Shown piece by piece: positions 22,873 through 42,023 of a stretch of 64,000 bases of DNA. The stretch is taken from contig OZ251518.1 of the NCBI GenBank assembly GCA_965242965.1, positions 640,001 through 704,000 of the forward strand, written 5' to 3'. The translations under genes and the position numbers were made by a program. The notes under the pieces are model-generated. The model saw only the letters and a program-made list of their open reading frames with translations. It was not told the DNA's origin and did no database searches. Each line of letters opens with the position of its first letter. Position 1 is the stretch's first letter. Source of the stretch: Candidatus Poribacteria bacterium. Its GTDB lineage: Bacteria > Poribacteria > WGA-4E > WGA-3G.

Positions 22873-23838
22873 CTACGAATTGAGAGCGTCTTTCATCAAC
22901 GCATCATAATCGGCATTCACCAACTCAATTCCGTAAAACGCCAGCCGCTCCATGATTATCCGGATGGCAGGGAGGTTATTATCTACCAGAATCGATGAGC
23001 GTCCGTGCAATGCCGCCGCTTCGCCGAGGGTACCGCTACCGGCAAAGAAATCCAACAACGTGTCGCCCGGCGACGAATGCACCTTAACAATGCGATTTAA
23101 GATACCGAGCGGTTTCTGCGTCGGATACCCCGTCTTTTCACCGCTGCTTGTGCCGACGATGGTGTGCCACCAAACGTCTGTCGGCGTTTTGCCGCGCGCC
23201 GCCTTCTCCTTGCCGACGAGCCCCGGTGCCATATACGGAATCCTGTCCATCTCGTCAAAATTGAAGGTGTAATGCTTCGGGTTTTTGGCATACCACAAGA
23301 TGTTATCGTGCTTTGCGGGCCAGCGCGATTTCGGGCGGCCGCCGTAATCATAAGCCCAAATAATCTCGTTCATGAACCCCGCGCGCCCGAAGATTTCATC
23401 CAGCATCACCTTACAGTAATGCACTTCGCGATAATCGATATGCAGAAAAAAACTGCCGTGCGGATGCAACACCCGATATGCCTCTTCAAAACGCGGACGC
23501 AAAAACTGCAAGTAGGCATCGGAACTCTCGAATTTATCGGAATAATGAATTCGGGACAGGGATGTCCCTCCTACCGATTCATCGGAATTCTCGAATTTAT
23601 CTGAGTCATGAGGCCCGGACAGGGATGTCCCTCCTACCGGTTTAATGGTGCGGTAAGTCTTGCCTTGGAAACCGACTCTGTCGCCTTGCGCATCCTGAAA
23701 CACCTGAATTTCGTCGCGCTGTTGGATTTTGCCGGTGTTGAAAGGCGGATCGATGTAAACGGCATTAACGCTCTCATCTGCGACATGTTCCCGCAAGATC
23801 TTCAGGTTATCGCCGTAATAGAGTTGATGGGTAGACAT
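22873..23838 (-). CDS. orphan beta-class N6/N4 DNA methyltransferase with internal REP-containing duplication
   Basis: YIDPPF precedes DFFAGSGT; YPTQKP; ATG 23838 after AAGGAG. Confidence 0.9.
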   Translation of the reverse strand: MSTHQLYYGDNLKILREHVADESVNAVYIDPPFNTGKIQQRDEIQVFQDAQGDRVGFQGKTYRTIKPVGGTSLSGPHDSDKFENSDESVGGTSLSRIHYSDKFESSDAYLQFLRPRFEEAYRVLHPHGSFFLHIDYREVHYCKVMLDEIFGRAGFMNEIIWAYDYGGRPKSRWPAKHDNILWYAKNPKHYTFNFDEMDRIPYMAPGLVGKEKAARGKTPTDVWWHTIVGTSSGEKTGYPTQKPLGILNRIVKVHSSPGDTLLDFFAGSGTLGEAAALHGRSSILVDNNLPAIRIIMERLAFYGIELVNADYDALMKDALNS

Positions 23839-24065
23839 AGTTCTCCTTCTGTTTTGAGATACGTTCATTATACAGAAATTCCTATATTCATGCAAGCGCG
23901 GTGCCACGAAAAAAACGCTTGACATCATTATCCAATTTTTGTTACAATAATTAACGCGACGACATAGAGGAGAGTTACGCAAATGTAGGTTGCGCTGTTT
24001 GAAACCGCGCCTACGGAGCTCGATTTGCGTAAATTCCACGAAAAAAAATCAAAGGAGCATCAAAT

Positions 24066-25686: not shown

Positions 25687-25906
25687 GTAGACGTAGGCGA
25701 GACCTCCTGGTCTCGATGTCCCCGTAGCGCGGGGGCCTGTCCCCCGCGAGCGTTGCGAGAAATGCGGCTGACACCGTAGCGCGGGGGCCTGTCCCCCGCG
25801 ATCGTTGCATGGCGAGGGACAGGCCCCCGCCCTACGTTGAAGAGGCCGTTTTTTCCGTGGCGCGGGGGCTGTCACCGCGCCGTTGAACAAGTTATGAAAC
25901 ACCCTC
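25687..25906. repeat. REP cluster ending in right TIR (25892-25906)
   Basis: Family B and A palindromes, then TTATGAAACACCCTC. Confidence 0.85.
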
Positions 25907-25912
25907 CGATAA

Positions 25913-26116
25913 GAAGGCATTTGAGCAGGCGATTTCTCTATTTCTTCTCCGATTTGCGTTGCCTTTGAGGACAAGGTTTTGGCGGAAGCAAATTCATGCC
26001 ATCGCAAGACCTGGCAGGTCCCTCAAAAACGTAGAAACCGACAACGCCGATTTCGGAGAGATGGAGAGACATGATTGCACAGCAACCGTTATCAAACGCC
26101 TTGCGAACGACGAAAA
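25913..26116. repeat. degenerate long inverted-repeat element, related to 31626-31990
   Basis: 26028-26116 aligns with 31899-31990 (AACGTAGA..CGACAACG..GGAGAGA..TTATC.AACGCCTTGCGAAC.ACGAAAA); partial inverted partner at 25913-25963. Confidence 0.6.
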
Positions 26117-26223
26117 AATCGTTCTGCATCGGACATTTTTTGTTGCGAAATGTTAGGGGTTGTGGTATTCTATCTGAAGGCGTTAGGTGCCTCAAACGTA
26201 ACTCACACCACGAGGGAATTCAG

Positions 26224-26517
26224 ATGAACACACCCACCGAAGTTGAAGTCCGTTTCACGCTCGCGATTTCCGAAGGTATCCTGCGACACAAAGGGGCTGC
26301 GGAGCAGAAAGCAAAGACAGCGTATGTGCTGGAACTGCTCCGACAGGGCGACATTAGCGCGGGCCGCGCCGCGACCCTGCTCAGCATTTCGCGATGGGAA
26401 CTCTCCGACTTGATGTCTGAATCAGGCATCTCCCCTTTTGATGACAGTCTCACCGCCGAAACGCTCGCTTCGGAAGTGGAGACAGCCTTGGAAGTGTTGG
26501 ATGGCCGGAAACGATGA
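26224..26517 (+). CDS. UPF0175 family protein (putative antitoxin, HTH)
   Basis: LLRQGDISAGRAATLLSISRWEL; ATGA overlap with the next gene. Confidence 0.85.
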   Translation: MNTPTEVEVRFTLAISEGILRHKGAAEQKAKTAYVLELLRQGDISAGRAATLLSISRWELSDLMSESGISPFDDSLTAETLASEVETALEVLDGRKR

Positions 26518-27014
26518 TTGTTTCAAACAGCACTCCATTGATTGAACTCTCGAAAATTCGGCGATTGGAATTGCTGCGGGATGTCTATGGCTCTCTCGTC
26601 ATTCCAAAGGCGGTTTATACCGAAGTCGTCATTAATGGGGAAGGAAAACCGGGTGCCGCCGAAGTCAAAGAGGCACCGTGGATTTACCCACACGCCGTGA
26701 CACATCGCAGTAAGGTTCAAAGCCTTTACGCCCGTCCCTCACTAGATTTAGGCGAATGTGAGGCGATAGTGCTAGCTGAAGAAATATCTGCAGCCCAGGT
26801 GATTCTCGATGACCGCGTTGCGCGGGAAGTCGCCGTATCTCGGGGGCTGCCTGTGATTGGCACGTTCGGCGTGTTGCTTGTCGCCAAAGCCGAAGGTATC
26901 ATTCCCACCGTGGAACCGATACTCACTGCGCTTCGGGCGCACGGGACACGCATCAGCCAACCCCTCTATCGTCTGATTCTTACTGCCGCCGGAGAATCAG
27001 ACGACGCGGCGTGA
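26514..27014 (+). CDS. DUF3368 family PIN-domain protein (putative toxin)
   Basis: IVSNSTPLI, IPKAVYTEV, LDLGECEAIVLA, ILDDRVAR, IGTFGVLL. Confidence 0.88.
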   Translation: MIVSNSTPLIELSKIRRLELLRDVYGSLVIPKAVYTEVVINGEGKPGAAEVKEAPWIYPHAVTHRSKVQSLYARPSLDLGECEAIVLAEEISAAQVILDDRVAREVAVSRGLPVIGTFGVLLVAKAEGIIPTVEPILTALRAHGTRISQPLYRLILTAAGESDDAA

Positions 27015-27147
27015 TTCGCTCCTGTTGCAGAACTGCAGAGAGGTGATGTTGCACGTTTGCATGCAAAGTCCCCGGCGATGCGAAAGAAAGGAAGCGGCTC
27101 GCCGGCAACAGTGTCGGCGAGCCGCTTTTGTTGGACAGCTTTTACGC

Positions 27148-28737
27148 CTACCGCCGTGGGTAGAACACATCGCGGTCGCGGGCAAAAAACCGCCAATCTA
27201 ACGACAGGCACCATTGCAAGAACGCCTCTGCGATGGGTGTCGTCGCGTCTGTGCCGAACCACACCTCGGCCAATTCCCGTGCTGTGAACGGCCGCGTGTA
27301 CCCGATTTGAAGGAGAAGGGCAGCCAACTCCGCCAGAATCCTGTCATTGGCGAGATGTCTCCCGCGTGAAATCCCGGGGTGGTTCCTGACAGGATACGCA
27401 CGGCCATTTTCGGGGCGTGTCACACCCACGTTTGGAACCGCGCTGCGCACGGATGCGGCTAACGCTTCTCGCGCCGCATCATCCCCGTGGACTAGAAACA
27501 ACTTGCCGGGTTGCACTTGCTGAACCAACCTCGTCAGTTCCTGGTTGTCCGCGTGTGCAGAGAGTGAGTAAGATGTCACTTTGCACGCAACGTTCACGGA
27601 CGTTCCATCGTCCAATGTCCACACCCGTTCTCGTGCCAGTGCGCGGCCAGGAGTCCCTTCTGCCTGATAGCCCGTGATTGCAATCAGGTTTTTCGCATCT
27701 TGGACGAGGTGTTCGGCATAATAACTCGACATGCCGCCTACCAGCATCCCAGACGATGCTACGATGCAACACGGCTCTCCCGACAGAACCCTATCGCTTT
27801 CTTCACGTGAGGAGACCTGTTGTATCTTCTCCGAATAAAAGAGATCTTCACCGCGTTCAACGTTGCGGCGCAGGGACGACGTGAGTTCAGCGGAAAAGTC
27901 CGAGTACACCTGATTGACTTTCCGCACCATCCCATCAACATATACGGGGAACTCCGGCACCCGGTTGCGCTGCATCGCGCGCTTTAAAACGAGAAGGACT
28001 TCTTGGGAACGCCCTACGGCAAAGGTAGGAATAAGCACTTTGCCGCCCTTGGCAATCGTTTCGGCTACATCCTGCGCGAGCGCGCGTTCTTGCGCCTCGC
28101 GCGTCTCGTGCCGGCGGTTGCCATAGGTTGACTCCATCACCATCACATCAGGTTTGCACCACGTTGGCACATTGAGGTTGGGCAACGTCCGCTGATTGGC
28201 AACGGATACATCGCCTGTCATCAAGAGGCTTTCTTGCTTTCCCTCAATGTAAATCATCGCCGCACCAAGAATGTGACCGGCGGGAATCCATGTCGCCCTC
28301 AAGGCACCGCCACAAATCGGGACGGGTAGTAGCCAGGGCACATCTGTCACCATGCGTTCCAGGGCCGCGGGTACCGCTTCGGGAGGATACAGGGGTTCCG
28401 GGCTCTGCTGTTTTCCGCCGCGACGTTGCCGTTTCACAGCATCTTCCAGCAAGACGCGTGTAATCGCTTTTGTTGCCGGTGTGCAATACGTAGGCACCCC
28501 GGCAGGCAGCATGCACTCCAATGCTGGCAACGCGCCCGTGTGATCGGTGTGTGCGTGCGTCAGGAGAACTGCATCCGGCATGCCAAGCCCCTCTAACGCT
28601 GTCAAATCGGGCAACGGTGAAATCCGACCGGGGCCCATCCGGATACCTACATCCACGAGGATGTGAGTGCCTTCAATTTCAATTGACGTGCTGGAGGCAC
28701 CAACTTCGTTGGCACCACCGCAAAAAGTCATCATCAT
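27148..28737 (-). CDS. metallo-beta-lactamase/beta-CASP ribonuclease (CPSF73-like)
   Basis: THAHTDH, AGHILGA, TGD, ESTYG, FAVGRSQE, SSGML, GYQAEGTPGR, SAHAD, LVHGD. Confidence 0.92.
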   Translation of the reverse strand: MMMTFCGGANEVGASSTSIEIEGTHILVDVGIRMGPGRISPLPDLTALEGLGMPDAVLLTHAHTDHTGALPALECMLPAGVPTYCTPATKAITRVLLEDAVKRQRRGGKQQSPEPLYPPEAVPAALERMVTDVPWLLPVPICGGALRATWIPAGHILGAAMIYIEGKQESLLMTGDVSVANQRTLPNLNVPTWCKPDVMVMESTYGNRRHETREAQERALAQDVAETIAKGGKVLIPTFAVGRSQEVLLVLKRAMQRNRVPEFPVYVDGMVRKVNQVYSDFSAELTSSLRRNVERGEDLFYSEKIQQVSSREESDRVLSGEPCCIVASSGMLVGGMSSYYAEHLVQDAKNLIAITGYQAEGTPGRALARERVWTLDDGTSVNVACKVTSYSLSAHADNQELTRLVQQVQPGKLFLVHGDDAAREALAASVRSAVPNVGVTRPENGRAYPVRNHPGISRGRHLANDRILAELAALLLQIGYTRPFTARELAEVWFGTDATTPIAEAFLQWCLSLDWRFFARDRDVFYPRR

Positions 28738-28914
28738 TATGGTTTCCTCTCACGATTGACAACAGAACTCTCTTCTGTGTCGGATACGGATGTGCGCAAT
28801 CCCAAAGGAATCCGCGTGAGGCTATTGAGCCTCCAAGCGTTCAGCGCATCCACTCATAACAATAGCGGTAGGTATTACGCCGATAAAACCTACCGACGCA
28901 ATACCTAGCACCTT

Positions 28915-29076
28915 TTATTTACCCTTTCCGCCTTTGGCAGGGGCGTTAGTTCTTCCGCCACCAGAGGGCTTGCCGGTTTTGCTCGGCCAGCCGCCGGCTC
29001 CTCTGCCTCGGCCGCCTTTACCGCCGCTTTGGTGACTACTTCTCCCTCCACCGCGGTTACTTTGTGATTTCGCCAT
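28915..29076 (-). CDS. 53-aa Gly/Arg/Lys-rich peptide
   Basis: Strong RBS AAGGAGGTGA; MAKSQSNRGGGRSSHQSGGKGGRGRGAGGWPSKTGKPSGGGRTNAPAKGGKGK. Confidence 0.75.
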   Translation of the reverse strand: MAKSQSNRGGGRSSHQSGGKGGRGRGAGGWPSKTGKPSGGGRTNAPAKGGKGK

Positions 29077-29089
29077 TTTTATCACCTCC

Positions 29090-29600
29090 TTCCTTGTAGG
29101 AATTCCTCGCCTCACCGGACCACAACGCTCTCCGATAGAAGCGATTGAACTGATGTTACCTGCGAAAGAACGCGTCATGGAAACCCGATGCCCGAAGGAT
29201 ACTGGGTACCACCCGCGATCTACGAAAGGCGACGCACCCGCAAATAAAATGTCGCGAGGTGTTTACTGTTACGCCCACAGAAAACGTGCGCGTGGAAACC
29301 CCTGCTAAAGCACGCTACCTTTCTTATATTGTTACCTATCCCTAGCAAAAACAAACCTTGAAACTTCGGCTTTGCAAGTGAAGTGCTCCATTTTACGGCA
29401 GCAGCAAAACTATATCCCATGAACATCCGATTGCCTCGGATACCAACCGTTAGGAGTCCCAACGCGGGAAACGTCAGGACCGGAAGAGCGGCAGACTGCC
29501 TCAAAGCAACGCAGTTGGTTTTTTTTGCACCACGGAGTAGGGTTTCTCAACGCTTTGTCTTCAGACTTTGTGAGAATTCCCTCTTCCAGAGTTGCATTGA
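29090..29600 (-). ncRNA. candidate structured ncRNA or long 5' leader (strand not certain)
   Basis: ~520 nt with no convincing CDS between a consensus promoter and the peptide RBS; several hairpins. Confidence 0.35.
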
Positions 29601-29605
29601 TACTA

Positions 29606-29634
29606 ATTATATCACAAAAAATGGCAAATGTCAA
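29606..29634 (-). promoter_or_regulatory. consensus sigma70 promoter with extended -10
   Basis: TTGACA-17 bp-TATAAT, with TG one base upstream of the -10. Confidence 0.8.
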
Positions 29635-29643
29635 ATTAAAATG

Positions 29644-29685
29644 AAAAAAAGTCGCCGCGGTTTGTATCGGTTACGCCGATACAAA
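29644..29685 (-). terminator. probable intrinsic terminator after the 585-aa gene
   Basis: 10-bp stem TTTGTATCGG/CCGATACAAA followed, 10 nt later, by T7 on the minus strand. Confidence 0.45.
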
Positions 29686-29713
29686 AGTGAAAGCGTCGGC
29701 CGGTGTCAACTTT

Positions 29714-31471
29714 CTACCACCGCCGATCTTCTTTATCGCGTGTCCGGTGCAACTCTTTTCGACGTGTGCGCATCGCACCGGCTTTATCGATGGGTATCTC
29801 AAGCGTTAAAAGATGTGCCTGCCGGAGCCACCAAAACGCCTCAAACAACGGACGGCGAGGCGACGCGCCCGTGTCGACATTGGCTTTGCGCCGGTCCAAC
29901 CGCCGAATCTGTTTGTGCGCCTTTTTCGCGACATCGCGGACGGTCGCGTCCGGATCCTTCTGGGAGAGCCAGAACAAGGTGCGATGGGCCCGTCCACCGG
30001 GATTCACGCGCAGTGCCGCCACTGCCTGCACATAACTCTGTCTCCATAGGCGGCGCGGTTCAACAAAATCGGTGTCGGTGTAAGTTGCCGTTTCTCGTTT
30101 CGTCCGGGTTTGGAGTCGACTGAGGCAGAACGTGGCGAATTCTTCGCGCAGGTCTCGCAAATGCGGGTCCCGCGCCAATTCGCGCTGCAAGTTCTGCGGA
30201 TACATGGAGATAGCAATCCAGTGTGGCACCACCGCGTAAGGATAAGGCGGTGGTTCGTCTCTACCGTATTCGGGCCACGCGCGCAGATCCGAGGTAACGG
30301 CTGGCTTTTTCATCTCGCTGAAGGCCAGTAATAACGGTTTCAGCCGCTGCCACGGTGGTGCCAACACTAGCAGAACGTAAAACGCCTTCTCATAAAAGTC
30401 ATGGACAGGTATGCCGGGAGAATCTTCCCTCTCAAAGCAAGCCGGTTCATCCCGCAAGAGCGAACGCAAGATGCCGATATGTCGCGAGGCACTCTGGACA
30501 AGCCTCCCTCTGAGTTCTTCAGAAAGTTCTGCTTCCAGCCCGCCCATGTGTCTCCCGTAAAGGATTCTGGCTAAGTGCCACCATGCTTTGAGCAAGGCAG
30601 AACGTCCGGGCTGCAATTCGGGCTGTTTCTCACTGAGCAACGCCAAAAATGGCATTAACTCGCGGGCAACAAGTTGCCATCCTTCGTTCAAGGCGGGTCC
30701 GGGGCCGAGTGCTTGACTCAAGGCGTAACCGATTGCATGGAGGAGCCCAAGGATTTTGTCCCCTAAATCGGGTTCTGGGACATTGGAAAAATCGGATAGC
30801 AACGTCTGCAGACGCACCGTATTACAACGTTCGGTGTTCGCTTGGAAACGCCATATTAACCAGAATTCCAGTTCGCCCGGGTCTTGGAAATCGTTGCTGC
30901 CCCAACTTTGGCGTTGGACGGGATTCAAGTGTCCCATGTCAACAATTTGGTTGAGCGGCACGCCTTCTGGAAAAATGAAGGGGAGCAACTGATCGAAATA
31001 GAAAACGCCGTTGTTGGTGTCCCTTATCTCAATGAGTTTGTGCACATTTGGGGCCGCTGTGCTGAAGTTGGCGTGCCGTTGGAATTCACCTACCCACGCC
31101 GGTATCTCTTGGGAGTCCTTCAGTTGGATGTTGGGTAAAAACCACGTATCGACTCTAGGGCCAAAGTCAAGCAGCTTGCTGAAGAGGAGGGCCAGGTGGG
31201 TTTGCCGGTCTGCCGCAACAGGCACCAGTTCTTTCAATGCTTTCAGGACAGTTTCAAGCCCCATCTCAAAGTCATCAAAATCGTCTTTGAACCGAGAGCT
31301 GTCCTCAGGGTTTCCAAAGCAGTCCGGGCGGAGAAAGAGGCGAACGAGCCAGCCCTGGTCTGCCGCGGAAAACCCCGCGGACTGAAGAGACTCTTTGACA
31401 GCGAAGACTTCCTCGGCAGAAGAATCTTCGGTTGGAAAAACGAGTGTTGCGGAGCGTTCAGTTTGGCTCAT
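29714..31471 (-). CDS. hypothetical protein, 585 aa, probably alpha-helical
   Basis: Long ORF with AAGGA RBS and its own promoter; no motif recognised. Confidence 0.8.
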   Translation of the reverse strand: MSQTERSATLVFPTEDSSAEEVFAVKESLQSAGFSAADQGWLVRLFLRPDCFGNPEDSSRFKDDFDDFEMGLETVLKALKELVPVAADRQTHLALLFSKLLDFGPRVDTWFLPNIQLKDSQEIPAWVGEFQRHANFSTAAPNVHKLIEIRDTNNGVFYFDQLLPFIFPEGVPLNQIVDMGHLNPVQRQSWGSNDFQDPGELEFWLIWRFQANTERCNTVRLQTLLSDFSNVPEPDLGDKILGLLHAIGYALSQALGPGPALNEGWQLVARELMPFLALLSEKQPELQPGRSALLKAWWHLARILYGRHMGGLEAELSEELRGRLVQSASRHIGILRSLLRDEPACFEREDSPGIPVHDFYEKAFYVLLVLAPPWQRLKPLLLAFSEMKKPAVTSDLRAWPEYGRDEPPPYPYAVVPHWIAISMYPQNLQRELARDPHLRDLREEFATFCLSRLQTRTKRETATYTDTDFVEPRRLWRQSYVQAVAALRVNPGGRAHRTLFWLSQKDPDATVRDVAKKAHKQIRRLDRRKANVDTGASPRRPLFEAFWWLRQAHLLTLEIPIDKAGAMRTRRKELHRTRDKEDRRW

Positions 31472-31595
31472 GAAATGTTCCTTACTTCTTAACCGTCAGC
31501 AGTGGACGAGATGCGTCCGGGACCCAGTTGACGGGTTAGGGTTAACGGTTGACTTCGGGTGTGCGTTCCTGCGCCGATTCGCACAGCCATGATAA

Positions 31596-31624
31596 AGTAT
31601 ATCACAAAAAAGCGGCGATGTCAA
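31596..31624 (-). promoter_or_regulatory. sigma70 promoter for the 585-aa gene
   Basis: TTGACA-17 bp-TATACT; shares TTTTTTGTGATATA with the promoter at 29606-29634. Confidence 0.75.
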
Positions 31625-31625
31625 T

Positions 31626-31990
31626 TTTTCGTTGTTCGCAAGGCGTTCGATTAGATGGGTTTGTAATTATAATCCCTCGGCGTAATCCGCAATCAACGTT
31701 GTTGATTGCTAGGGTTCTGGTGCTAATTTTTGTCATCGGCAAGTCTGCACGTAGGTGATTCTGCAGTTCTGCACTTTTTTTGTAACCACCACCGAAAAGA
31801 GCCGTTTTTATCCCCAAGATGCCCACGATGTATTTATGCACTTCTGCACTGATGCATTTCAGGGAATCTGCACATAAACCGTTACCTCTTGCTCCAATAA
31901 CGTAGATATCGACAACGTCGATATCGGATAAACGGAGAGAAACGTTGTTAAACGAGAAACCTTTATCGAACGCCTTGCGAACAACGAAAA
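31626..31990. repeat. 365-bp element with long terminal inverted repeats and internal phased TCTGCAC heptads
   Basis: TTTTCGTTGTTCGCAAGGCGTTCGAT at 31626 and its exact reverse complement ending at 31990. Confidence 0.75.
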
Positions 31991-31994
31991 CGCG

Positions 31995-32265
31995 ACTGAC
32001 GAAAATAGCGGTTTTGTCCGCAAAGGGCGGTGCGGGCAAGACAACCGTCTCAATCAACCTCGCTGTCTCTGCAGAACACGCGGGACACGCGACCGTCCTC
32101 ATCGATTTGGACCCGCAGGCCAGTGCCTGTCGCTGGCCGGACGTTCGAGAAGACGACACGCCCGCTGTCGTGTCGGCGCACGCGGCGCGGCTACCGCAAC
32201 TGCTTCCGGACAGCGAACGTGCCCTCAAACGCAGCGGCGACGTTCCGAATGTCATCGTGATTTAA
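31995..32265 (+). pseudogene. parA: truncated ParA/Soj family ATPase
   Basis: KIAVLSAKGGAGKTT, LIDLDPQAS; no ATG at the expected start, stop after ~90 codons. Confidence 0.75.
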
Positions 32266-32357: not shown

Positions 32358-33095
32358 CTATCTGGAGAAGTTCATCTTCCGCTGGAAGTCTCCACCCTCA
32401 AAGGGACTTTTCTCTGTCACCTCTCCGGTTCTCAAGTTCATCCACCCGATAATCTTGCCGCTTTTCGTTCTCGCAGGCTTAAACACTTCACCGGTGGCGG
32501 TATTTGTTACCGTGTCGTCTGCCGCGGTCTGCCGCTTGGGAGTAGCATCCTGCTGTTTCACGGCTTTCATGGCAGCCTTGACGATATTCGGTGGCACGAC
32601 AGCTTTGAGGGCGTTCAACTCTGCCTCGGTCTGCTTGAGACGCTTCCCTGCTGCATCAGCCCGAAGCTTCTCTGCAGCAGCTTGCTGTTCTGCCCGCTGC
32701 TTTTCGTTTTCGGCGCGCTGAAGAAGAGACTGTCCCTGTGTCTGGCGCGTGTGAAGAGTGGCACCTTGCGCCTCATTTCGCTGCCTTAATGCTCTTGCCT
32801 CATCTTCGGCATCGACTGCGCGAAGAACTGCGTTTCGCGCGCTATCCCTTTCAGCGTCGGCTCGTTGACGTTCTTTAGCGATGGCGACCTCGGCGGTGTC
32901 AGCGCGTTGTCGTTCCTTCTCGCATTCAGCCACGGCTCGGTTTCGCGCCGCTTGATACCTCTCGGCGGTATCCCTTTCCTTCGCTAATGCTTTCTCTAAC
33001 TGCACCTTCTCATCAAGACTCTCGCGCTTGGCGGCGTTGGAAAGATACCATCCCACGCCGAGAACTAGACAGAGAATGATGACGACGATTTCCAT
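32358..33095 (-). CDS. membrane-anchored coiled-coil hypothetical protein
   Basis: N-terminal TM, Ala/Glu/Arg coiled coil, small C-terminal domain; RBS AAGGAG. Confidence 0.75.
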   Translation of the reverse strand: MEIVVIILCLVLGVGWYLSNAAKRESLDEKVQLEKALAKERDTAERYQAARNRAVAECEKERQRADTAEVAIAKERQRADAERDSARNAVLRAVDAEDEARALRQRNEAQGATLHTRQTQGQSLLQRAENEKQRAEQQAAAEKLRADAAGKRLKQTEAELNALKAVVPPNIVKAAMKAVKQQDATPKRQTAADDTVTNTATGEVFKPARTKSGKIIGWMNLRTGEVTEKSPFEGGDFQRKMNFSR

Positions 33096-33549: not shown

Positions 33550-34078
33550 TGCATTGAGACTAGGAGGTCTCTCCTACAAGGGGAGCATCGGGCCTTCCTC
33601 GCTCTGTAGTTTGCGATCGCCTGATCGCAAACGGAGCATCGAGACTAGGAGGTCTCTCCTACCAATCGAGCCCCACTCTGTAGGTCAAGATCGCCTGCTC
33701 TTGACCCGTTCGGGATCGCCCGATCCCGAACTATGGTCTCTCTTCACCGTAGCGCGGGGGCCTGTCCCCCGCGATCGTTGCATGGCGAGGGACAGGCCCT
33801 CGCCCTACGGTAACCCGGAGCGTTTTTTCCGTCGATCTGTTCGGGAGCAGGTGCTCCCGAACTACGGTCTTTTCCAAGGTCCAAGCACGGCGAGGGACAG
33901 GCCCTCGCCCTACGGTAACCCGGGCCGTTTTTTTTCGTAGCGCGGGGGCCTGTCCCCCGCGAGTGTTGCATGGCGAGGGACAGGCCCTCGCCCTACGGTA
34001 AGATGGGGCGTTTTTTTTCGTAGCGCGGGGGACAGGCCCCCGCGAGCGGTGCATGGCGAGGGACAGAGGACAAACTAC
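33550..34078. repeat. mixed REP cluster (families A, B, D)
   Basis: More than 10 palindromic units. Confidence 0.85.
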
Positions 34079-41228: not shown

Positions 41229-41723
41229 ATGTTACGCCAAAAGATTTACCATCTTAACGAACTTGCGCCGCTTCTTCAGGATGCCAAAGCCGCGGGCAAA
41301 GTCGTCGTCACGACGAACGGATGCTTTGACGTGCTACATCTGGGGCATCTCCGCTATCTCCAAGCCGCGCGGGAACTCGGAGAGTTGCTGGTTGTCGCAG
41401 TGAATAGTGATAGTTCGGTTCGGCAGCTCAAGGGCGAAAACCGGCCGCTTGTCCCTGAATCAGAGCGCGCCGAAATGCTCGCCGGCTTGGAATGCGTTGA
41501 TTACGTCGTCATCTTCCCTGAATTAACGCCGGTTGCGTTGCTTGCCGAGCTCAAACCCAACATCCACGTCAAAGGCGGCGACTACAAATTGGAGCAGCTC
41601 GTTGAGAGGGAAGTTGTTGAGGCGCACGGCGGCAAGGTTATCGTCGGACTGAATGTCCCCGGCAAATCCACGACGAATCTCATCCAAGTGATTTGCGAAC
41701 GATATACCCGTGGCGGCCCGTAG
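41229..41723 (+). CDS. rfaE2: D-glycero-beta-D-manno-heptose 1-phosphate adenylyltransferase
   Basis: TNGCFDVLHLGH, VNSDSSVRQLKGENRP, KGGDY, GKSTT. Confidence 0.9.
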   Translation: MLRQKIYHLNELAPLLQDAKAAGKVVVTTNGCFDVLHLGHLRYLQAARELGELLVVAVNSDSSVRQLKGENRPLVPESERAEMLAGLECVDYVVIFPELTPVALLAELKPNIHVKGGDYKLEQLVEREVVEAHGGKVIVGLNVPGKSTTNLIQVICERYTRGGP

Positions 41724-42023
41724 CGCGAGGGCCTGTCCCTCGCGAGCCCTAGAACGCGTGTCCGGCCGTAGCGCGAGGGCCTGTCCCTCGCGAAGCCTCG
41801 GTGCAGACTAGGCTCGGCGAGGGACAGGCCCACCTCTGTAGTTCGGGAGCACCCGCTCCCGAACGGGCAGGATCAGGCGATCCTGACCTACAGAGGTGGT
41901 GCGCTCTGACAGCCAAACACATGGCGAGGGACAGGCCCTCGCCCTACGGTGAAAGGGGAGGCGTTTTTTCACCGGATCGCGGGGTCTGTCCCCGCGACGT
42001 TGAGCGAGTTATGAAACACCCTC
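41720..42023. repeat. REP cluster ending in right TIR (42009-42023)
   Basis: Family A and D palindromes. Confidence 0.85.

What the first reader, a model, noticed from the sequence alone, without database searches (positions are those of the whole stretch)
27148..29634. Candidate RNA-peptide-ribonuclease unit: promoter, ~520-nt structured RNA, RGG-like peptide, beta-CASP nuclease
Seen: a consensus TTGACA-17-TATAAT promoter (29606-29634, minus strand) is followed by ~520 nt with no convincing CDS. This stretch has several hairpins, including an irregular stem at 29526-29596, ATCCGA/TCGGAT near 29425-29441 and a C(UUCG)G-capped stem near 29183-29207. Next come a 53-aa Gly/Arg/Lys peptide with a strong RBS, a 17-bp stem, more hairpins (28757-28831), and a complete beta-CASP nuclease, with no obvious promoter in between. 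Established: CPSF73-like beta-CASP proteins are RNases, and RGG-rich disordered peptides commonly bind RNA. Inference: one transcript encoding an RNase, a partner or substrate RNA and an RNA-binding peptide, possibly a defence or RNA-processing module. I do not recognise this arrangement as a described system. A hairpin plus T-run on the plus strand near 29495-29526 leaves an antisense RNA possible.
Basis: partly seen in the sequence, partly recalled or inferred. Interest (0 to 1): 0.78.

Follow-up and report, generated by a model that had tools for sequence, protein, structure and literature searches.

The report
Structured RNA leaders in nuclease operon
The stretch is the patchwork front end of a sponge-bacterium (Poribacteria-type) gene module in which two previously uncatalogued folded RNA elements, a tiny basic protein and an unknown helical protein accompany swappable enzymes (here an RNA-cutting nuclease, elsewhere antiviral viperin), which looks like an undescribed, RNA-controlled defence-type system.

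Summary
The "~520-nt RNA", however, is a composite and not one RNA.

It contains:
- a perfect promoter;
- a conserved ~135-nt four-helix RNA (motif 1, 29530..29395);
- a dead copy of the start of the neighbouring 585-aa gene (A);
- a dispersed repeat;
- a decayed copy of a second RNA element.

An intact 76-nt motif 2 (28854..28778) lies between the peptide and the beta-CASP gene. Both motifs covary strongly and match no Rfam family.

Across 41 related loci plus the window, the module reads: motif 1, A, small basic peptide, hairpin, motif 2, effector. The effector is a beta-CASP RNase, pVip plus kinase, or a B12 radical-SAM enzyme, and these swap freely. The peptide is a real protein under selection. 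It is tied to the module as a whole, not to the nuclease.

Distant A homologues outside this group are also followed by the same three effector types. A has no Pfam family or name, and my searches found no paper on the association.

Best reading (about 0.55): an accessory, defence-type operon whose RNA leaders gate translation. No expression data and no biochemistry were available.

The parts
29714..31471 (-). Gene A: 585-aa all-helical (HEAT/ARM-like) protein of an unnamed family. It is the constant first gene of the module.
   Evidence: ORF. No Pfam, NCBIfam or PADLOC hit. 435 homologues, all unnamed or 'hypothetical protein'. A profile search found 472 cluster representatives. AF2 model: pLDDT 81.9, all helices. 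Only weak solenoid matches in the PDB, best E 0.03.
31596..31624 (-). Promoter-like site in front of gene A (TTGACA-17-TATACT, TG before the -10 box). It resembles the 29634 promoter.
   Evidence: Read by eye in the sequence. Listed as direct-repeat family D1 with 29605-29637, 79% identical. Not run through the promoter scan.
29606..29634 (-). Consensus sigma-70 promoter with an extended -10 box and an A/T-rich upstream stretch.
   Evidence: 12 of 12 matches plus TG. The surrounding ~45 nt recur at 4 other places in the genome. By eye those places lie upstream of tRNA-like genes, and one lies upstream of a tRNA plus what I read as the start of 23S rRNA (ARAGORN not run).
29395..29530 (-). RNA motif 1: ~135 nt with four helices (P1-P4) and conserved unpaired CUCUUCCGG, GGGAAUCCUA and AGGAUAUAG. 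A pseudoknot AUCC:GGAU is possible.
   Evidence: CM R1 scores 129 bits here. 44 copies were found in 40 of 41 loci plus the window. 88% of cells are paired, 23 of 30 pairs show compensatory change, 0 of 500 shuffles reach this, and slid controls reach at most 50.5%. No Rfam match. The pseudoknot core never varies; its fifth pair is compensatory in 4 sequences and unpaired in 12.
29329..29394 (-). Relic of gene A's ribosome-binding site and first codons. The start codon is lost.
   Evidence: GGAGCACTTCACTTGCAAAGCCGAAG in the window corresponds to GGAGCATTTCATGCGCAAAACTGAAAAAG in G021 (by eye). Collinear with the sister genome down to 29329.
29101..29328 (-). Window-specific 228-nt filler. It stands where the sister genome has motif 2 + pVip + kinase (1671 nt). 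It contains a short dispersed repeat (29325..29263) and a decayed motif-2 copy (29242..29164).
   Evidence: Break in collinearity. The repeat matches 16 places in G002. The decayed motif 2 scores 11 bits, E 0.017.
28915..29076 (-). 53-aa basic Gly/Arg/Lys/Ser peptide (class 1) with the conserved core GWPSKTGxPSGGGRxNAP and a strong Shine-Dalgarno sequence.
   Evidence: ORF. A peptide of class 1 or 2 is present in 38 of 42 loci. In the 17-aa core of 18 sequences, nucleotide differences by codon position are 458/423/1414, and differing codons are 1118 synonymous against 591 non-synonymous. 21 strong genome hits all lie in genomes that hold motif 1.
28869..28907 (-). 17-bp hairpin that starts about 10 nt after the first base of the peptide's stop codon.
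   Evidence: Folding z = -5.95, 0 of 200 shuffles as stable. Among 42 peptide copies, 25 are followed by a hairpin with an uninterrupted stem of at least 9 bp, usually starting 0-12 nt after the stop; the hairpin sequences differ.
28778..28854 (-). RNA motif 2: 76 nt, an outer helix enclosing two hairpins. It is the common leader of every effector cassette.
   Evidence: CM R3 scores 66 bits here. 41 copies were found in 37 of 42 sources, all on the gene strand upstream of beta-CASP, pVip or B12-rSAM genes. 91% of cells are paired, 17 of 24 pairs are compensatory, 0 of 500 shuffles reach this, and slid controls reach at most 49%. There is a single copy in the whole genome.
28758..28781 (-). Short hairpin between motif 2 and the nuclease's ribosome-binding site.
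   Evidence: Folding z = -3.45, 0 of 200 shuffles as stable. A hairpin occupies the same position in the spacers of other loci (by eye).
27148..28737 (-). Beta-CASP metallo-beta-lactamase nuclease of 529 aa, of the CPSF73/aCPSF1 type, with a family-specific C-terminal extension of about 70-95 aa.
   Evidence: Pfam: Beta-Casp 1.1e-28, RMMBL 4e-13, Lactamase_B 2.1e-9. NCBIfam: aCPSF1 7.9e-91 and Cas14 3.6e-84, both below their cut-offs. Nearest solved structures: 3af5 3e-59, FttA, CPSF73, IntS11, Cas14, TTHA0252.

Best explanation
The window holds one copy of an accessory, shuffled gene module found in Poribacteria-type bacteria. The usual order is: strong promoter, RNA motif 1, gene A (a HEAT-like helical protein), small basic peptide, long hairpin, RNA motif 2, effector gene. 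In the window the effector is a CPSF73/aCPSF1-type beta-CASP RNase.

In the window's lineage the promoter, motif 1 and the first codons of A were copied to the far side of A. A pVip + kinase cassette that the sister genome still carries is missing here. Together these events produced a ~520-nt patchwork leader in front of the peptide and the nuclease.

Proposed working (inferred): motifs 1 and 2 are cis-acting 5' leaders that control translation start. Each is followed in many loci by a hairpin that hides the ribosome-binding site or the start codon. They would respond either to a small molecule (riboswitch-like) or to a protein of the module (A or the peptide). This would keep A and the effector low until a signal arrives.

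The effectors are interchangeable antiviral-type payloads: an RNase, the chain-terminator synthase pVip with its kinase, or a B12 radical-SAM enzyme. A and the peptide are the constant partners, acting as sensor, regulator or cofactor.

Shown here: the anatomy, the conservation, the covariation, the co-occurrence and the cassette swapping. Inferred: transcription as one unit, translational gating, a defence role, and the roles of A and the peptide.
For: Motif 1:
- 44 copies in 40 of 41 loci plus the window.
- Present in 29 of 151 genomes of the phylum sample, 1-2 copies each.
- Beside A in 30 of 30 fetched loci.
- Strong covariation.
- A near-consensus promoter (at least 10 of 12) precedes 18 of 44 copies, often ending 6-8 nt before the element.
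- Followed by hairpins that pair the Shine-Dalgarno sequence or the AUG (MFE folds read by eye).

Motif 2:
- 41 copies in 37 of 42 sources, always just upstream of an effector, including cassettes without a peptide.
- Strong covariation.
- In several loci its 3' flank UCCUUUCA is complementary to the downstream UGAAAGGA (by eye).

Window versus sister genome:
- All differences inside motif 1 fall in loops or unpaired positions (by eye).
- The two genomes are collinear except where pVip + kinase stand in the sister. A decayed motif 2 remains at that spot.

Effectors:
- pVip: PADLOC 1.7e-117. Kinase: VakA and PDC-M51B. B12 radical-SAM enzyme: PDC-M51A 2.7e-88.
- Effector content is scattered over the A tree: 21 changes against a shuffled mean of 21.2 (quick tree).

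Distribution:
- The module is patchy. A is in 7 of 41 relatives and was not found in the 2 same-genus genomes.
- Distant A homologues (about 30-43% identical) are followed by pVip, B12-rSAM or beta-CASP homologues in 21 of the 30 metagenome loci that have at least 900 nt downstream.

Peptide: under purifying selection and confined to the module.
Against: - No expression data were available, and no RNA sequencing run was listed. Co-transcription, RNA ends and read-through of the long hairpin are therefore unknown.
- In the window, motif 1 no longer precedes a start codon. The peptide's ribosome-binding site lies about 300 nt further on, so its cis role here is unclear and it could act in trans.
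- Neither A, the peptide nor this beta-CASP matches any PADLOC model. The defence reading rests on guilt by association with pVip and with a PADLOC candidate.
- The neighbourhood is not a clear defence island. I read a toxin-antitoxin-like pair and a methyltransferase-like ORF there, but the flanks of other loci hold ordinary genes such as an AcrB-type pump, Gfo/Idh/MocA oxidoreductases and UvrA.
- Single-sequence folding of motif 1 is unremarkable (z = -0.5). The SD-sequestering hairpins come from MFE folds of short pieces and were not tested for covariation.
- The motifs and peptides were not detected next to the distant A homologues, so the RNA layer may be lineage-specific.
- The metagenome tally includes 7 near-duplicate contig pairs.
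Confidence: 0.55

Rival explanations
1. Ribonucleoprotein reading, close to the first reader's. Motif 1 is a stable, trans-acting non-coding RNA that binds the helical protein A, perhaps together with the basic peptide. It would guide or tether the effector RNase, in the way Ro60 and Y RNA work with an exoribonuclease.
For: - Motif 1 lies beside A in 30 of 30 loci.
- In the window and the sister genome it sits after A, under its own tRNA/rRNA-type promoter(s). It is intact there, with changes only in loops, although it no longer precedes a start codon.
- Tandem copies occur in L082 and L083, and an extra copy in L073.
- A is a helical solenoid.
Against: - In most copies the element ends within a few tens of nt of A's ribosome-binding site and is followed by SD- or AUG-pairing hairpins. 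That is the layout of a cis leader.
- I saw no terminator after the element in the sequences.
- A has no TROVE or other RNA-binding Pfam domain.
- The effector is often pVip or a radical-SAM enzyme, which need no guide.
Confidence: 0.2
2. Housekeeping reading. The module is not immune. It is a regulated nucleotide or RNA metabolism or stress operon, and the RNA leaders are ordinary metabolite riboswitches.
For: - The flanking genes in many loci are ordinary.
- No PADLOC hit for A, the peptide or the nuclease.
- A is highly conserved, 57-60% identical across the group.
- A homologues are rare in viral contigs: 3 loci.
Against: - The distribution is patchy: 29 of 151 genomes hold motif 1, and A was not found in the 2 same-genus genomes.
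- Effectors swap rapidly, even between close A sisters.
- One of the interchangeable effectors is pVip with its kinase, which I recall as an experimentally supported antiviral enzyme (Bernheim et al. 2021, recalled and not read here). Its PADLOC score is 1.7e-117.
Confidence: 0.15
3. Leader-peptide reading. The small ORF is mainly a regulatory upstream ORF. Ribosome progress or stalling on it would open or close the hairpin that starts right after its stop codon, and so set expression of the effector, as in erm- or tna-type attenuation. This could coexist with the best explanation.
For: - A long hairpin begins 0-12 nt after the stop codon in most copies (25 of 42 have an uninterrupted stem of at least 9 bp).
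- The ORF precedes each kind of effector and is duplicated when there are two effectors, as in L054 and L060.
- The conserved core contains W-P, K-P and A-P steps.
Against: - Two unrelated peptide classes fill the same slot.
- The whole 17-aa core is under protein-level selection and the Shine-Dalgarno sequence is near-perfect. This fits an abundant functional protein at least as well.
- Some cassettes have motif 2 but no peptide: pVip in L045, L049 and L065, and also L051, L080 and L082.
Confidence: 0.15
4. RiPP-type reading. The small peptide is a precursor that the neighbouring radical-SAM enzymes modify.
For: - Radical-SAM genes follow the peptide in 16 loci: pVip in 9 and the B12 radical-SAM gene in 7.
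- From memory, sponge symbionts are known for peptide natural products.
Against: - The same peptide precedes a nuclease in 22 loci.
- The radical-SAM enzymes score as pVip and as PDC-M51A.
- I saw no protease, transporter or recognition-element gene in the clusters.
- The peptide is Gly/Arg/Lys-rich with no Cys/Ser/Thr-rich core.
Confidence: 0.03

Closest known systems
aCPSF1/FttA and CPSF73/IntS11 beta-CASP ribonucleases
   Same: The catalytic core (residues 3 to about 431-462) aligns to 3af5 (3e-59), FttA 9bct, CPSF73 2i7t and IntS11. Pfam finds Lactamase_B, Beta-Casp and RMMBL. By eye in the translation I see HAHTDH, a His in PAGHILG, an Asp in TGDVS, and SAHAD and VHGD near the end. From memory these correspond to the beta-CASP motifs, with the RNase-type His in the last one.
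   Different: The protein scores 305 bits against the aCPSF1 cut-off of 580, and the match starts at profile position 177, so the N-terminal part of aCPSF1 is absent. It carries its own C-terminal extension. It is a bacterial gene placed in an accessory cassette behind a structured leader.
Cas14, the beta-CASP nuclease of type VII CRISPR systems
   Same: NCBIfam Cas14 model, E 3.6e-84 over positions 1-442. Solved Cas14 8yhd, E 3e-49. It is a beta-CASP RNase recruited to an immune role.
   Different: 283 bits against a cut-off of 800. No CRISPR repeat family (Rfam) and no repeat array in 15000-45000. No cas genes were recognised among the ORFs (read by eye only).
Prokaryotic viperin (pVip) with its associated nucleotide kinase
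   Same: In 13 of 42 loci the cassette slot holds pVip (PADLOC 1.7e-117). Where a kinase ORF follows it, that ORF matches thymidylate kinase and VakA. The sister genome has pVip + kinase exactly where the window has 228 nt of filler.
   Different: The window itself has no pVip. The partners seen here (A, the peptide and the RNA leaders) are not mentioned in the passages I read of the viperin evolution preprint, which names only kinases (10.1101/2023.09.13.557418, passages).
PADLOC candidate system PDC-M51 (B12 radical-SAM enzyme + kinase)
   Same: The third cassette type matches PDC-M51A (2.7e-88), and the kinase matches PDC-M51B (9.2e-28).
   Different: It is a candidate known only from a model library. 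A full-text search for the name found no paper. It is not present in the window.
Riboswitches and protein-binding mRNA leaders that control translation start
   Same: Motifs 1 and 2 are compact multi-helix domains with invariant junction nucleotides. They sit in 5' leaders and are followed by structures that can pair with the Shine-Dalgarno sequence or the AUG.
   Different: They match none of 4227 Rfam families. No ligand or binding protein is known. In the window, motif 1 is detached from a start codon.
Ro60 (Rsr) with Y RNA and an exoribonuclease (recalled analogy)
   Same: A helical-repeat protein encoded next to a ~100-nt structured RNA and associated with an RNase.
   Different: No TROVE domain in A and no Y RNA family hit. 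This is a resemblance of layout only.

Membership tests
Beta-CASP metallo-beta-lactamase nucleases | MBL domain plus inserted beta-CASP domain, scoring above the Pfam thresholds | tested here: met
   Beta-Casp 100.6 bits (cut-off 27.7), Lactamase_B 38 bits (22.7), RMMBL 49.6 bits (21.6).
Beta-CASP metallo-beta-lactamase nucleases | Metal-binding and beta-CASP signature residues present, with a His in the last motif for the RNA-acting members (motif names recalled) | tested here: met
   HAHTDH, GHILG, TGDVS, SAHAD and VHGD were read in the translation. They were not checked against a structure.
aCPSF1 (TIGR03675 equivalog) | Score at or above the curated cut-off, and a full-length match that includes the N-terminal region | tested here: not met
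   305.2 bits against a cut-off of 580.2. The match covers profile positions 177-624 only.
Type VII CRISPR Cas14 | Score at or above the curated cut-off, and a CRISPR/cas context | tested here: not met
   283.2 bits against a cut-off of 800. No CRISPR repeat family in the window. No array in 15000-45000.
RNase J | Score at or above the curated cut-off | tested here: not met
   28.9 bits against a cut-off of 400, covering residues 6-99 only.
Any described RNA family (Rfam 15) | A covariance-model match at the gathering score, or even at E <= 5 | tested here: not met
   No match in the leader at E <= 5. No match in the whole window at gathering score. Only one tRNA in 10 related loci.
Riboswitch (as a kind) | Conserved structured domain supported by covariation | tested here: met
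   Motif 1: 23 of 30 pairs compensatory. Motif 2: 17 of 24. In both, 0 of 500 shuffles reach the observed values. These alignments were fitted to the models, which favours the structure. The slid controls are far lower.
Riboswitch (as a kind) | Sits in a 5' leader with an expression platform | tested here: inconclusive
   The position before start codons is clear. SD- or AUG-pairing hairpins were seen in MFE folds but were not tested for covariation. In the window, motif 1 lies about 300 nt from the next ribosome-binding site.
Riboswitch (as a kind) | Binds a small-molecule ligand directly | not testable with these tools
   This needs in-line probing or binding assays.
RGG/RG-motif RNA-binding peptides | Repeated RGG or RG boxes conserved in the family | tested here: not met
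   The window peptide has RGGGR and GRGRG, but this N-terminal half is the variable part of the 21-sequence alignment. The conserved part is GWPSKTGxPSGGGRxNAP. A second, unrelated peptide class (DNRANQLNPNNxxYW) fills the same slot.
pVip defence system (PADLOC) | A pVip gene present | tested here: not met
   No PADLOC hit for the three window proteins. pVip is present in 13 of 42 related loci.
Ro60/Y RNA | A TROVE-domain protein and a Y RNA | tested here: not met
   No Pfam family for A. No Rfam hit.

The most novel reading that the evidence does not exclude
Gene A marks an undescribed immune system that crosses phyla. Its payloads (a beta-CASP RNase, pVip, a B12 radical-SAM enzyme) are plug-in cassettes. 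In Poribacteria-type bacteria each cassette would be switched on through two new classes of sensor RNA. Motif 1 would be a riboswitch for an infection-linked nucleotide signal, or for the effectors' own product. Motif 2 would be a shared operator RNA read by A or by the small basic peptide. This would be the first case of riboswitch-type RNAs gating antiviral effectors, and it would give viperin a regulatory partner in bacteria.
Probability: 0.25. Interest if true: 0.9.

Novelty: new variant of a known kind. Interest (0 to 1): 0.8.

Why it matters
How bacteria keep costly antiviral enzymes such as viperin or nucleases in check is largely unknown.

This locus offers a testable package:
- two well-supported, uncatalogued RNA structures placed exactly where translation starts;
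- a conserved unknown protein that accompanies pVip, a radical-SAM candidate and a CPSF73-type RNase, even in distant lineages;
- a small, selected basic protein confined to the module.

If the RNAs prove to be sensors, they would link riboswitch-type control to immunity. If gene A is a cofactor or sensor, it would add a partner to prokaryotic viperins.

Even on the modest reading, the work yields:
- two new RNA families with seed alignments (44 and 41 sequences);
- one new protein family (472 cluster representatives);

Tried and rejected
- Expression: the look-up of sequencing runs listed no RNA holder. Read laying was therefore not used, and nothing can be said about expression.
- Protein-protein test: the complex-prediction job for A plus the peptide was never accepted, because the queue was full through. 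There is no result in either direction.
- Leader as a decayed CDS: rejected for the leader as a whole. The ORFs are not conserved. However, about 65 nt are indeed a relic of A's start region.
- One large structured RNA: rejected (z = -1.6; only positions 40-277 of the leader are conserved in the sister genome).
- Antisense RNA ending at the plus-strand T-run: no support.
- Inverted 24-27-nt repeats flanking the module (26091-26117 and 31625-31651) as transposon ends: rejected. The repeat has 57 copies across the genome.
- Fold search for A in the PDB: only generic solenoid matches, none at E <= 0.001. The ESM Atlas gave only weak HEAT-repeat leads.
- Names for distant A homologues: none. Of 10 clusters looked up, one was labelled 'hypothetical protein'. 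Of 14 proteins scanned, none had a Pfam family.
- Homologues of the peptides in the protein collection: 9 for each class, all unnamed.
- Papers. Full-text searches found nothing relevant for: 'Poribacteria' + 'RNA motif' (0 papers), 'PDC-M51' (0), 'pVip' + 'HEAT repeat' (0), 'viperin' + 'beta-CASP' (2 papers held, 1 listed; title and abstract start seen, unrelated), and 'viperin' + 'riboswitch' (7 listed, none on this topic by title and abstract start). Supplementary tables of the viperin papers could not be seen and might list neighbouring genes.
- Pseudoknot in motif 1: kept only as a possibility.

Full report
**1. What is in the window**

All features below are on the minus strand.
- A 585-aa ORF, here called A, at 31471..29714.
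- An 80-nt gap.
- A perfect TTGACA-17-TATAAT promoter with a TG extension at 29634..29606. It scores 12 of 12. The three other promoter-like sites in 26500-30500 score 9 of 12.
- About 520 nt without a credible CDS.
- A 53-aa Gly/Arg/Lys/Ser peptide at 29076..28915, behind AAGGAGGTGAT.
- A 177-nt spacer.
- A complete 529-aa beta-CASP gene at 28737..27148, with Pfam Lactamase_B, Beta-Casp and RMMBL domains.

The roughly 45 nt around the promoter recur at four other places in the genome. By eye, those places precede tRNA-like genes. One holds a tandem row of such promoters before a tRNA and what I read as the start of 23S rRNA (ARAGORN not run). The promoter is therefore of the type this genome uses for stable RNAs.

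No Rfam family matches the leader at E <= 5. None matches anywhere in the window at gathering score. Folded as a whole, the 522-nt leader is not unusual: z = -1.6, and 5 of 100 shuffles are as stable.

**2. The leader is a composite**

A DNA search of 40 relatives found leader positions 40-277 at 88% identity in one sister genome (G004, a different genus of the same family). Shorter pieces turned up next to A homologues in G021 and G040. Positions 281-343 matched 16 places in G002, so that piece is a small dispersed repeat.

Reading the loci gave three results:
- A conserved ~135-nt element lies directly between a strong promoter and the ribosome-binding site of the A homologue in G003, G017, G021, G034 and G040.
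- In the window and in G004 the same element lies downstream of A.
- In those two genomes it is followed by a dead copy of A's translation start. The window has GGAGCACTTCACTTGCAAAGCCGAAG where G021 has GGAGCATTTCATGCGCAAAACTGAAAAAG.

The window and G004 are collinear from 31537 to 29329 (82%) and from 29100 to 27102 (88%). Between these blocks the window has 228 nt, where G004 has 1671 nt carrying a second RNA element, a viperin-like gene and a kinase. Inside the 228 nt lies a decayed copy of that second element at 29242..29164 (11 bits, E 0.017 in a 1-kb search).

The two leader ORFs (94 and 74 aa) are not kept as open frames in other loci.

**3. RNA motif 1 (29530..29395)**

- Distribution in loci. 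A covariance model built from 7 sequences found 44 copies, in 40 of 41 loci that encode an A homologue and in the window. The one locus without a hit has only 43 nt of DNA upstream of A.
- Covariation. On that alignment 88.2% of cells form pairs and 23 of 30 pairs show changes on both sides. No shuffle out of 500 reaches the observed values, and sliding the 3' partners drops pairing to 50.5% or less. The alignment was fitted to the model, which favours the structure.
- Structure. There are four helices. The unpaired stretches CUCUUCCGG, GGGAAUCCUA and AGGAUAUAG are nearly invariant. A pseudoknot AUCC:GGAU is possible. Its core never varies, and its fifth pair is compensatory in 4 sequences and unpaired in 12.
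- Distribution in genomes. In a sample of 151 genomes of the phylum, 29 hold the element, with one or two copies each. In all 30 fetched loci it lies beside A.
- Exceptions to 'directly before the start codon':
  - the window and G004, where it lies after A;
  - L077, with a gap of about 365 nt;
  - L083, with tandem copies about 900 nt upstream;
  - L082, with tandem copies;
  - L073, with a second copy followed by a truncated A.
- Promoter. A near-consensus promoter (at least 10 of 12) precedes 18 of 44 copies. It often ends 6-8 nt before the aligned element, so in those loci the RNA starts at the element.
- What follows. In many loci MFE folds show a short hairpin that pairs the Shine-Dalgarno sequence, or in another subgroup the AUG. 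I read these by eye and did not test them for covariation.
- Window versus G004. All differences within the element fall in loops or unpaired positions. This argues that the displaced copy is still under selection.

**4. The peptide**

Two profile HMMs, one per peptide class, found a small ORF downstream of A in 38 of 42 loci.
- Class 1 has the core GWPSKTGxPSGGGRxNAP.
- Class 2 has the core DNRANQLNPNNxxYW.

The ORF directly precedes each kind of effector:
- the beta-CASP gene in 22 of 25 loci;
- pVip in 9 of 13;
- the B12 radical-SAM gene in 7 of 8.

Loci with two effectors can have two peptides (L054, L060).

In the 17-aa core of 18 class-1 sequences, nucleotide differences fall 458/423/1414 by codon position. 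Differing codons are 1118 synonymous against 591 non-synonymous. The peptide is therefore a translated protein under selection.

In the same 151 genomes the class-1 profile hits 23. The 21 strong hits are all in genomes that hold motif 1 and lie 2-4 kb from it. Two weak hits (E 6.6e-5 and 8.8e-4) are in genomes without motif 1.

The RGG-like N-terminal half is the variable part. Each class has only 9 unnamed relatives in the protein collection.

**5. Between peptide and effector**

- Hairpin. A long hairpin starts 0-12 nt after the stop codon in most copies. Of 42 copies, 25 have an uninterrupted stem of at least 9 bp, and the sequences vary. In the window it has 17 bp at 28907..28869, with z = -5.95.
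- RNA motif 2 (28854..28778). This is an outer helix enclosing two hairpins.
  - A model built from 18 sequences found 41 copies in 37 of 42 sources. All are on the gene strand, just upstream of beta-CASP, pVip or B12-rSAM genes. This includes cassettes without a peptide.
  - Covariation: 91.3% of cells paired, 17 of 24 pairs compensatory, 0 of 500 shuffles, slid controls at 49% or less.
  - The window's genome has this single copy.
  - No Rfam family matched in 10 related loci apart from one tRNA.
- Further features. A further short hairpin (28781..28758, z = -3.45) and the ribosome-binding site follow. In several loci the 3' flank of motif 2 (UCCUUUCA) is complementary to the downstream UGAAAGGA (by eye).

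**6. The proteins**

*Beta-CASP nuclease*
- Its core aligns to archaeal aCPSF1 (3af5, 3e-59), FttA, CPSF73, IntS11, Cas14 of type VII CRISPR (3e-49) and TTHA0252.
- NCBIfam scores for aCPSF1 (305 bits against a cut-off of 580) and Cas14 (283 against 800) are below their cut-offs.
- The signature residues are present by eye (motif names recalled).
- The last 70-95 residues are specific to this clade.

*Other effectors*
- pVip scores 1.7e-117 in PADLOC.
- The kinase matches thymidylate kinase, VakA and PDC-M51B.
- The third enzyme is a B12-binding radical-SAM protein matching PDC-M51A at 2.7e-88.

*Gene A*
- No Pfam, NCBIfam or PADLOC match.
- It has 435 close relatives, all unnamed or 'hypothetical protein'.
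- Its AF2 model is all-helical with pLDDT 81.9.
- The PDB holds only weak ARM/HEAT/karyopherin-like matches, none at E <= 0.001.
- The ESM Atlas gave only weak HEAT-repeat leads.

**7. How the module behaves**

- A is patchy. It is in 7 of 41 relatives including the window's genome, and was not found in the two same-genus genomes.
- Beta-CASP orthologues at 53% identity or more occur in only 3 of 40 relatives.
- On a quick maximum-likelihood tree of the 42 A proteins, effector content needs 21 changes. This equals the shuffled mean of 21.2, and close sisters differ (the careful search did not finish).
- Flanking genes differ between lineages and are mostly ordinary.
- A profile of A found 472 cluster representatives.
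- Of the 42 metagenome loci fetched with a profile of distant A homologues, 38 have an A ORF and 30 have at least 900 nt downstream. Of those 30, 21 carry a pVip, B12-rSAM or beta-CASP homologue on the same strand within 2.6 kb. This set includes 7 near-duplicate contig pairs.
- Both RNA motifs and the peptides were detected only in the four metagenome loci that look Poribacteria-like. I searched 40 of the 42 loci, leaving out two duplicates.
- A is rare in viral contigs: 3 loci.

**8. Interpretation**

The conserved unit is A plus a swappable effector. In this bacterial group it is elaborated by two structured leaders and a small basic protein.

I think the most likely working is translational gating by the two RNAs of a defence-type operon (confidence about 0.55).
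- The anatomy, covariation, co-occurrence and cassette exchange are shown.
- Transcription as one unit, the gating itself, the immune role, and the tasks of A and the peptide are inferred.

A leader-peptide (attenuation) role for the small ORF may coexist with either reading.

**9. Literature**

Full-text searches found nothing on this association. In the viperin evolution preprint I read only the passages matching 'neighborhood', 'kinase', 'operon' and 'unknown function'. They name kinases as the only linked genes. Supplementary tables were closed and might list other neighbours. What I say about pVip's antiviral activity and about Ro60/Y RNA is recalled, not read here.

**10. Limits**

- No expression data.
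- No protein-complex prediction, because the queue was full.
- Covariation was counted on model-fitted alignments.
- Several statements rest on reading sequences by eye and are marked as such.
- Many related MAGs are titled Latescibacterota, and others Poribacteria, in their records. I rely on the tool's taxonomy, which places them in the window's phylum.

Noticed in passing
window 26091-26117, 31626-31651, 31965-31990: A 24-27-nt repeat (TTCGTTGTTCGCAAGGCGTTCGAT) occurs three times around the module. One copy abuts the -35 box of gene A's promoter. The genome holds 57 copies within 3 mismatches, against 0 for the reversed control. It could be a dispersed operator-like or REP-like element.
   Followed up: partly
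window 26071-27014 (+): A toxin-antitoxin-like pair lies convergent with the nuclease gene: a UPF0175 protein (5.5e-10), then a DUF3368/PIN-like protein (3.1e-13), with overlapping ORFs.
   Followed up: no
window 22873-24039 (-): An ORF with an IDPPFNTG motif, read by eye as a DNA methyltransferase. It was not scanned against any library.
   Followed up: no
window 31945-32265 (+) and 32358-33095 (-): A short ORF with a ParA-like KGGAGKTT P-loop (by eye), and a 245-aa Glu/Ala/Arg/Lys-rich ORF that looks coiled-coil by eye. The second is also found upstream of A in the sister genome (cluster c39).
   Followed up: no
window 25717-25839, 33885-34066, 41718-41787: GC-rich palindromic repeats of the type CGTAGCGCGGGGGCCTGTCCCCCGCG occur in direct and inverted copies. 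They look like another dispersed repeat family.
   Followed up: no
L003 (G000:C1 around 3550460-3550624): A row of at least five near-identical strong promoters in tandem lies upstream of a tRNA-like gene and what I read as the 5' end of 23S rRNA.
   Followed up: no
L119 2747-3268, L124 7165-7608, L123 1207-1611, L133 800-1342: Next to distant A homologues, a different small protein of about 135-180 aa fills the slot after A. Its shared motif is roughly VIGGD...EVIHCPT.K.D...LVIW..GLSRT.HG. It may be an analogue of the Poribacteria peptide.
   Followed up: no
L060 10086-12944: The beta-CASP gene is split into two pieces by about 1.1 kb that carries a 375-aa ORF on the opposite strand. This is probably an insertion.
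   Followed up: no
L073 9899-10303; L082 5618-5987; L083 4728-5096: Extra copies of motif 1: one downstream copy followed by a truncated A-like ORF, and tandem pairs upstream of A. The promoter-motif-A-start unit seems to duplicate repeatedly.
   Followed up: partly
window 31472-31560 (-) and L045 5935-6000: In the window and the sister genome, A's own leader contains CAACUGGGUCCCGGACGCAUCUCGUCC. This resembles the hairpin that follows motif 2 in effector leaders of other loci (CAACUGGGAUAG.AACAUCGUCCC). It hints at recombination between leaders (by eye).
   Followed up: no
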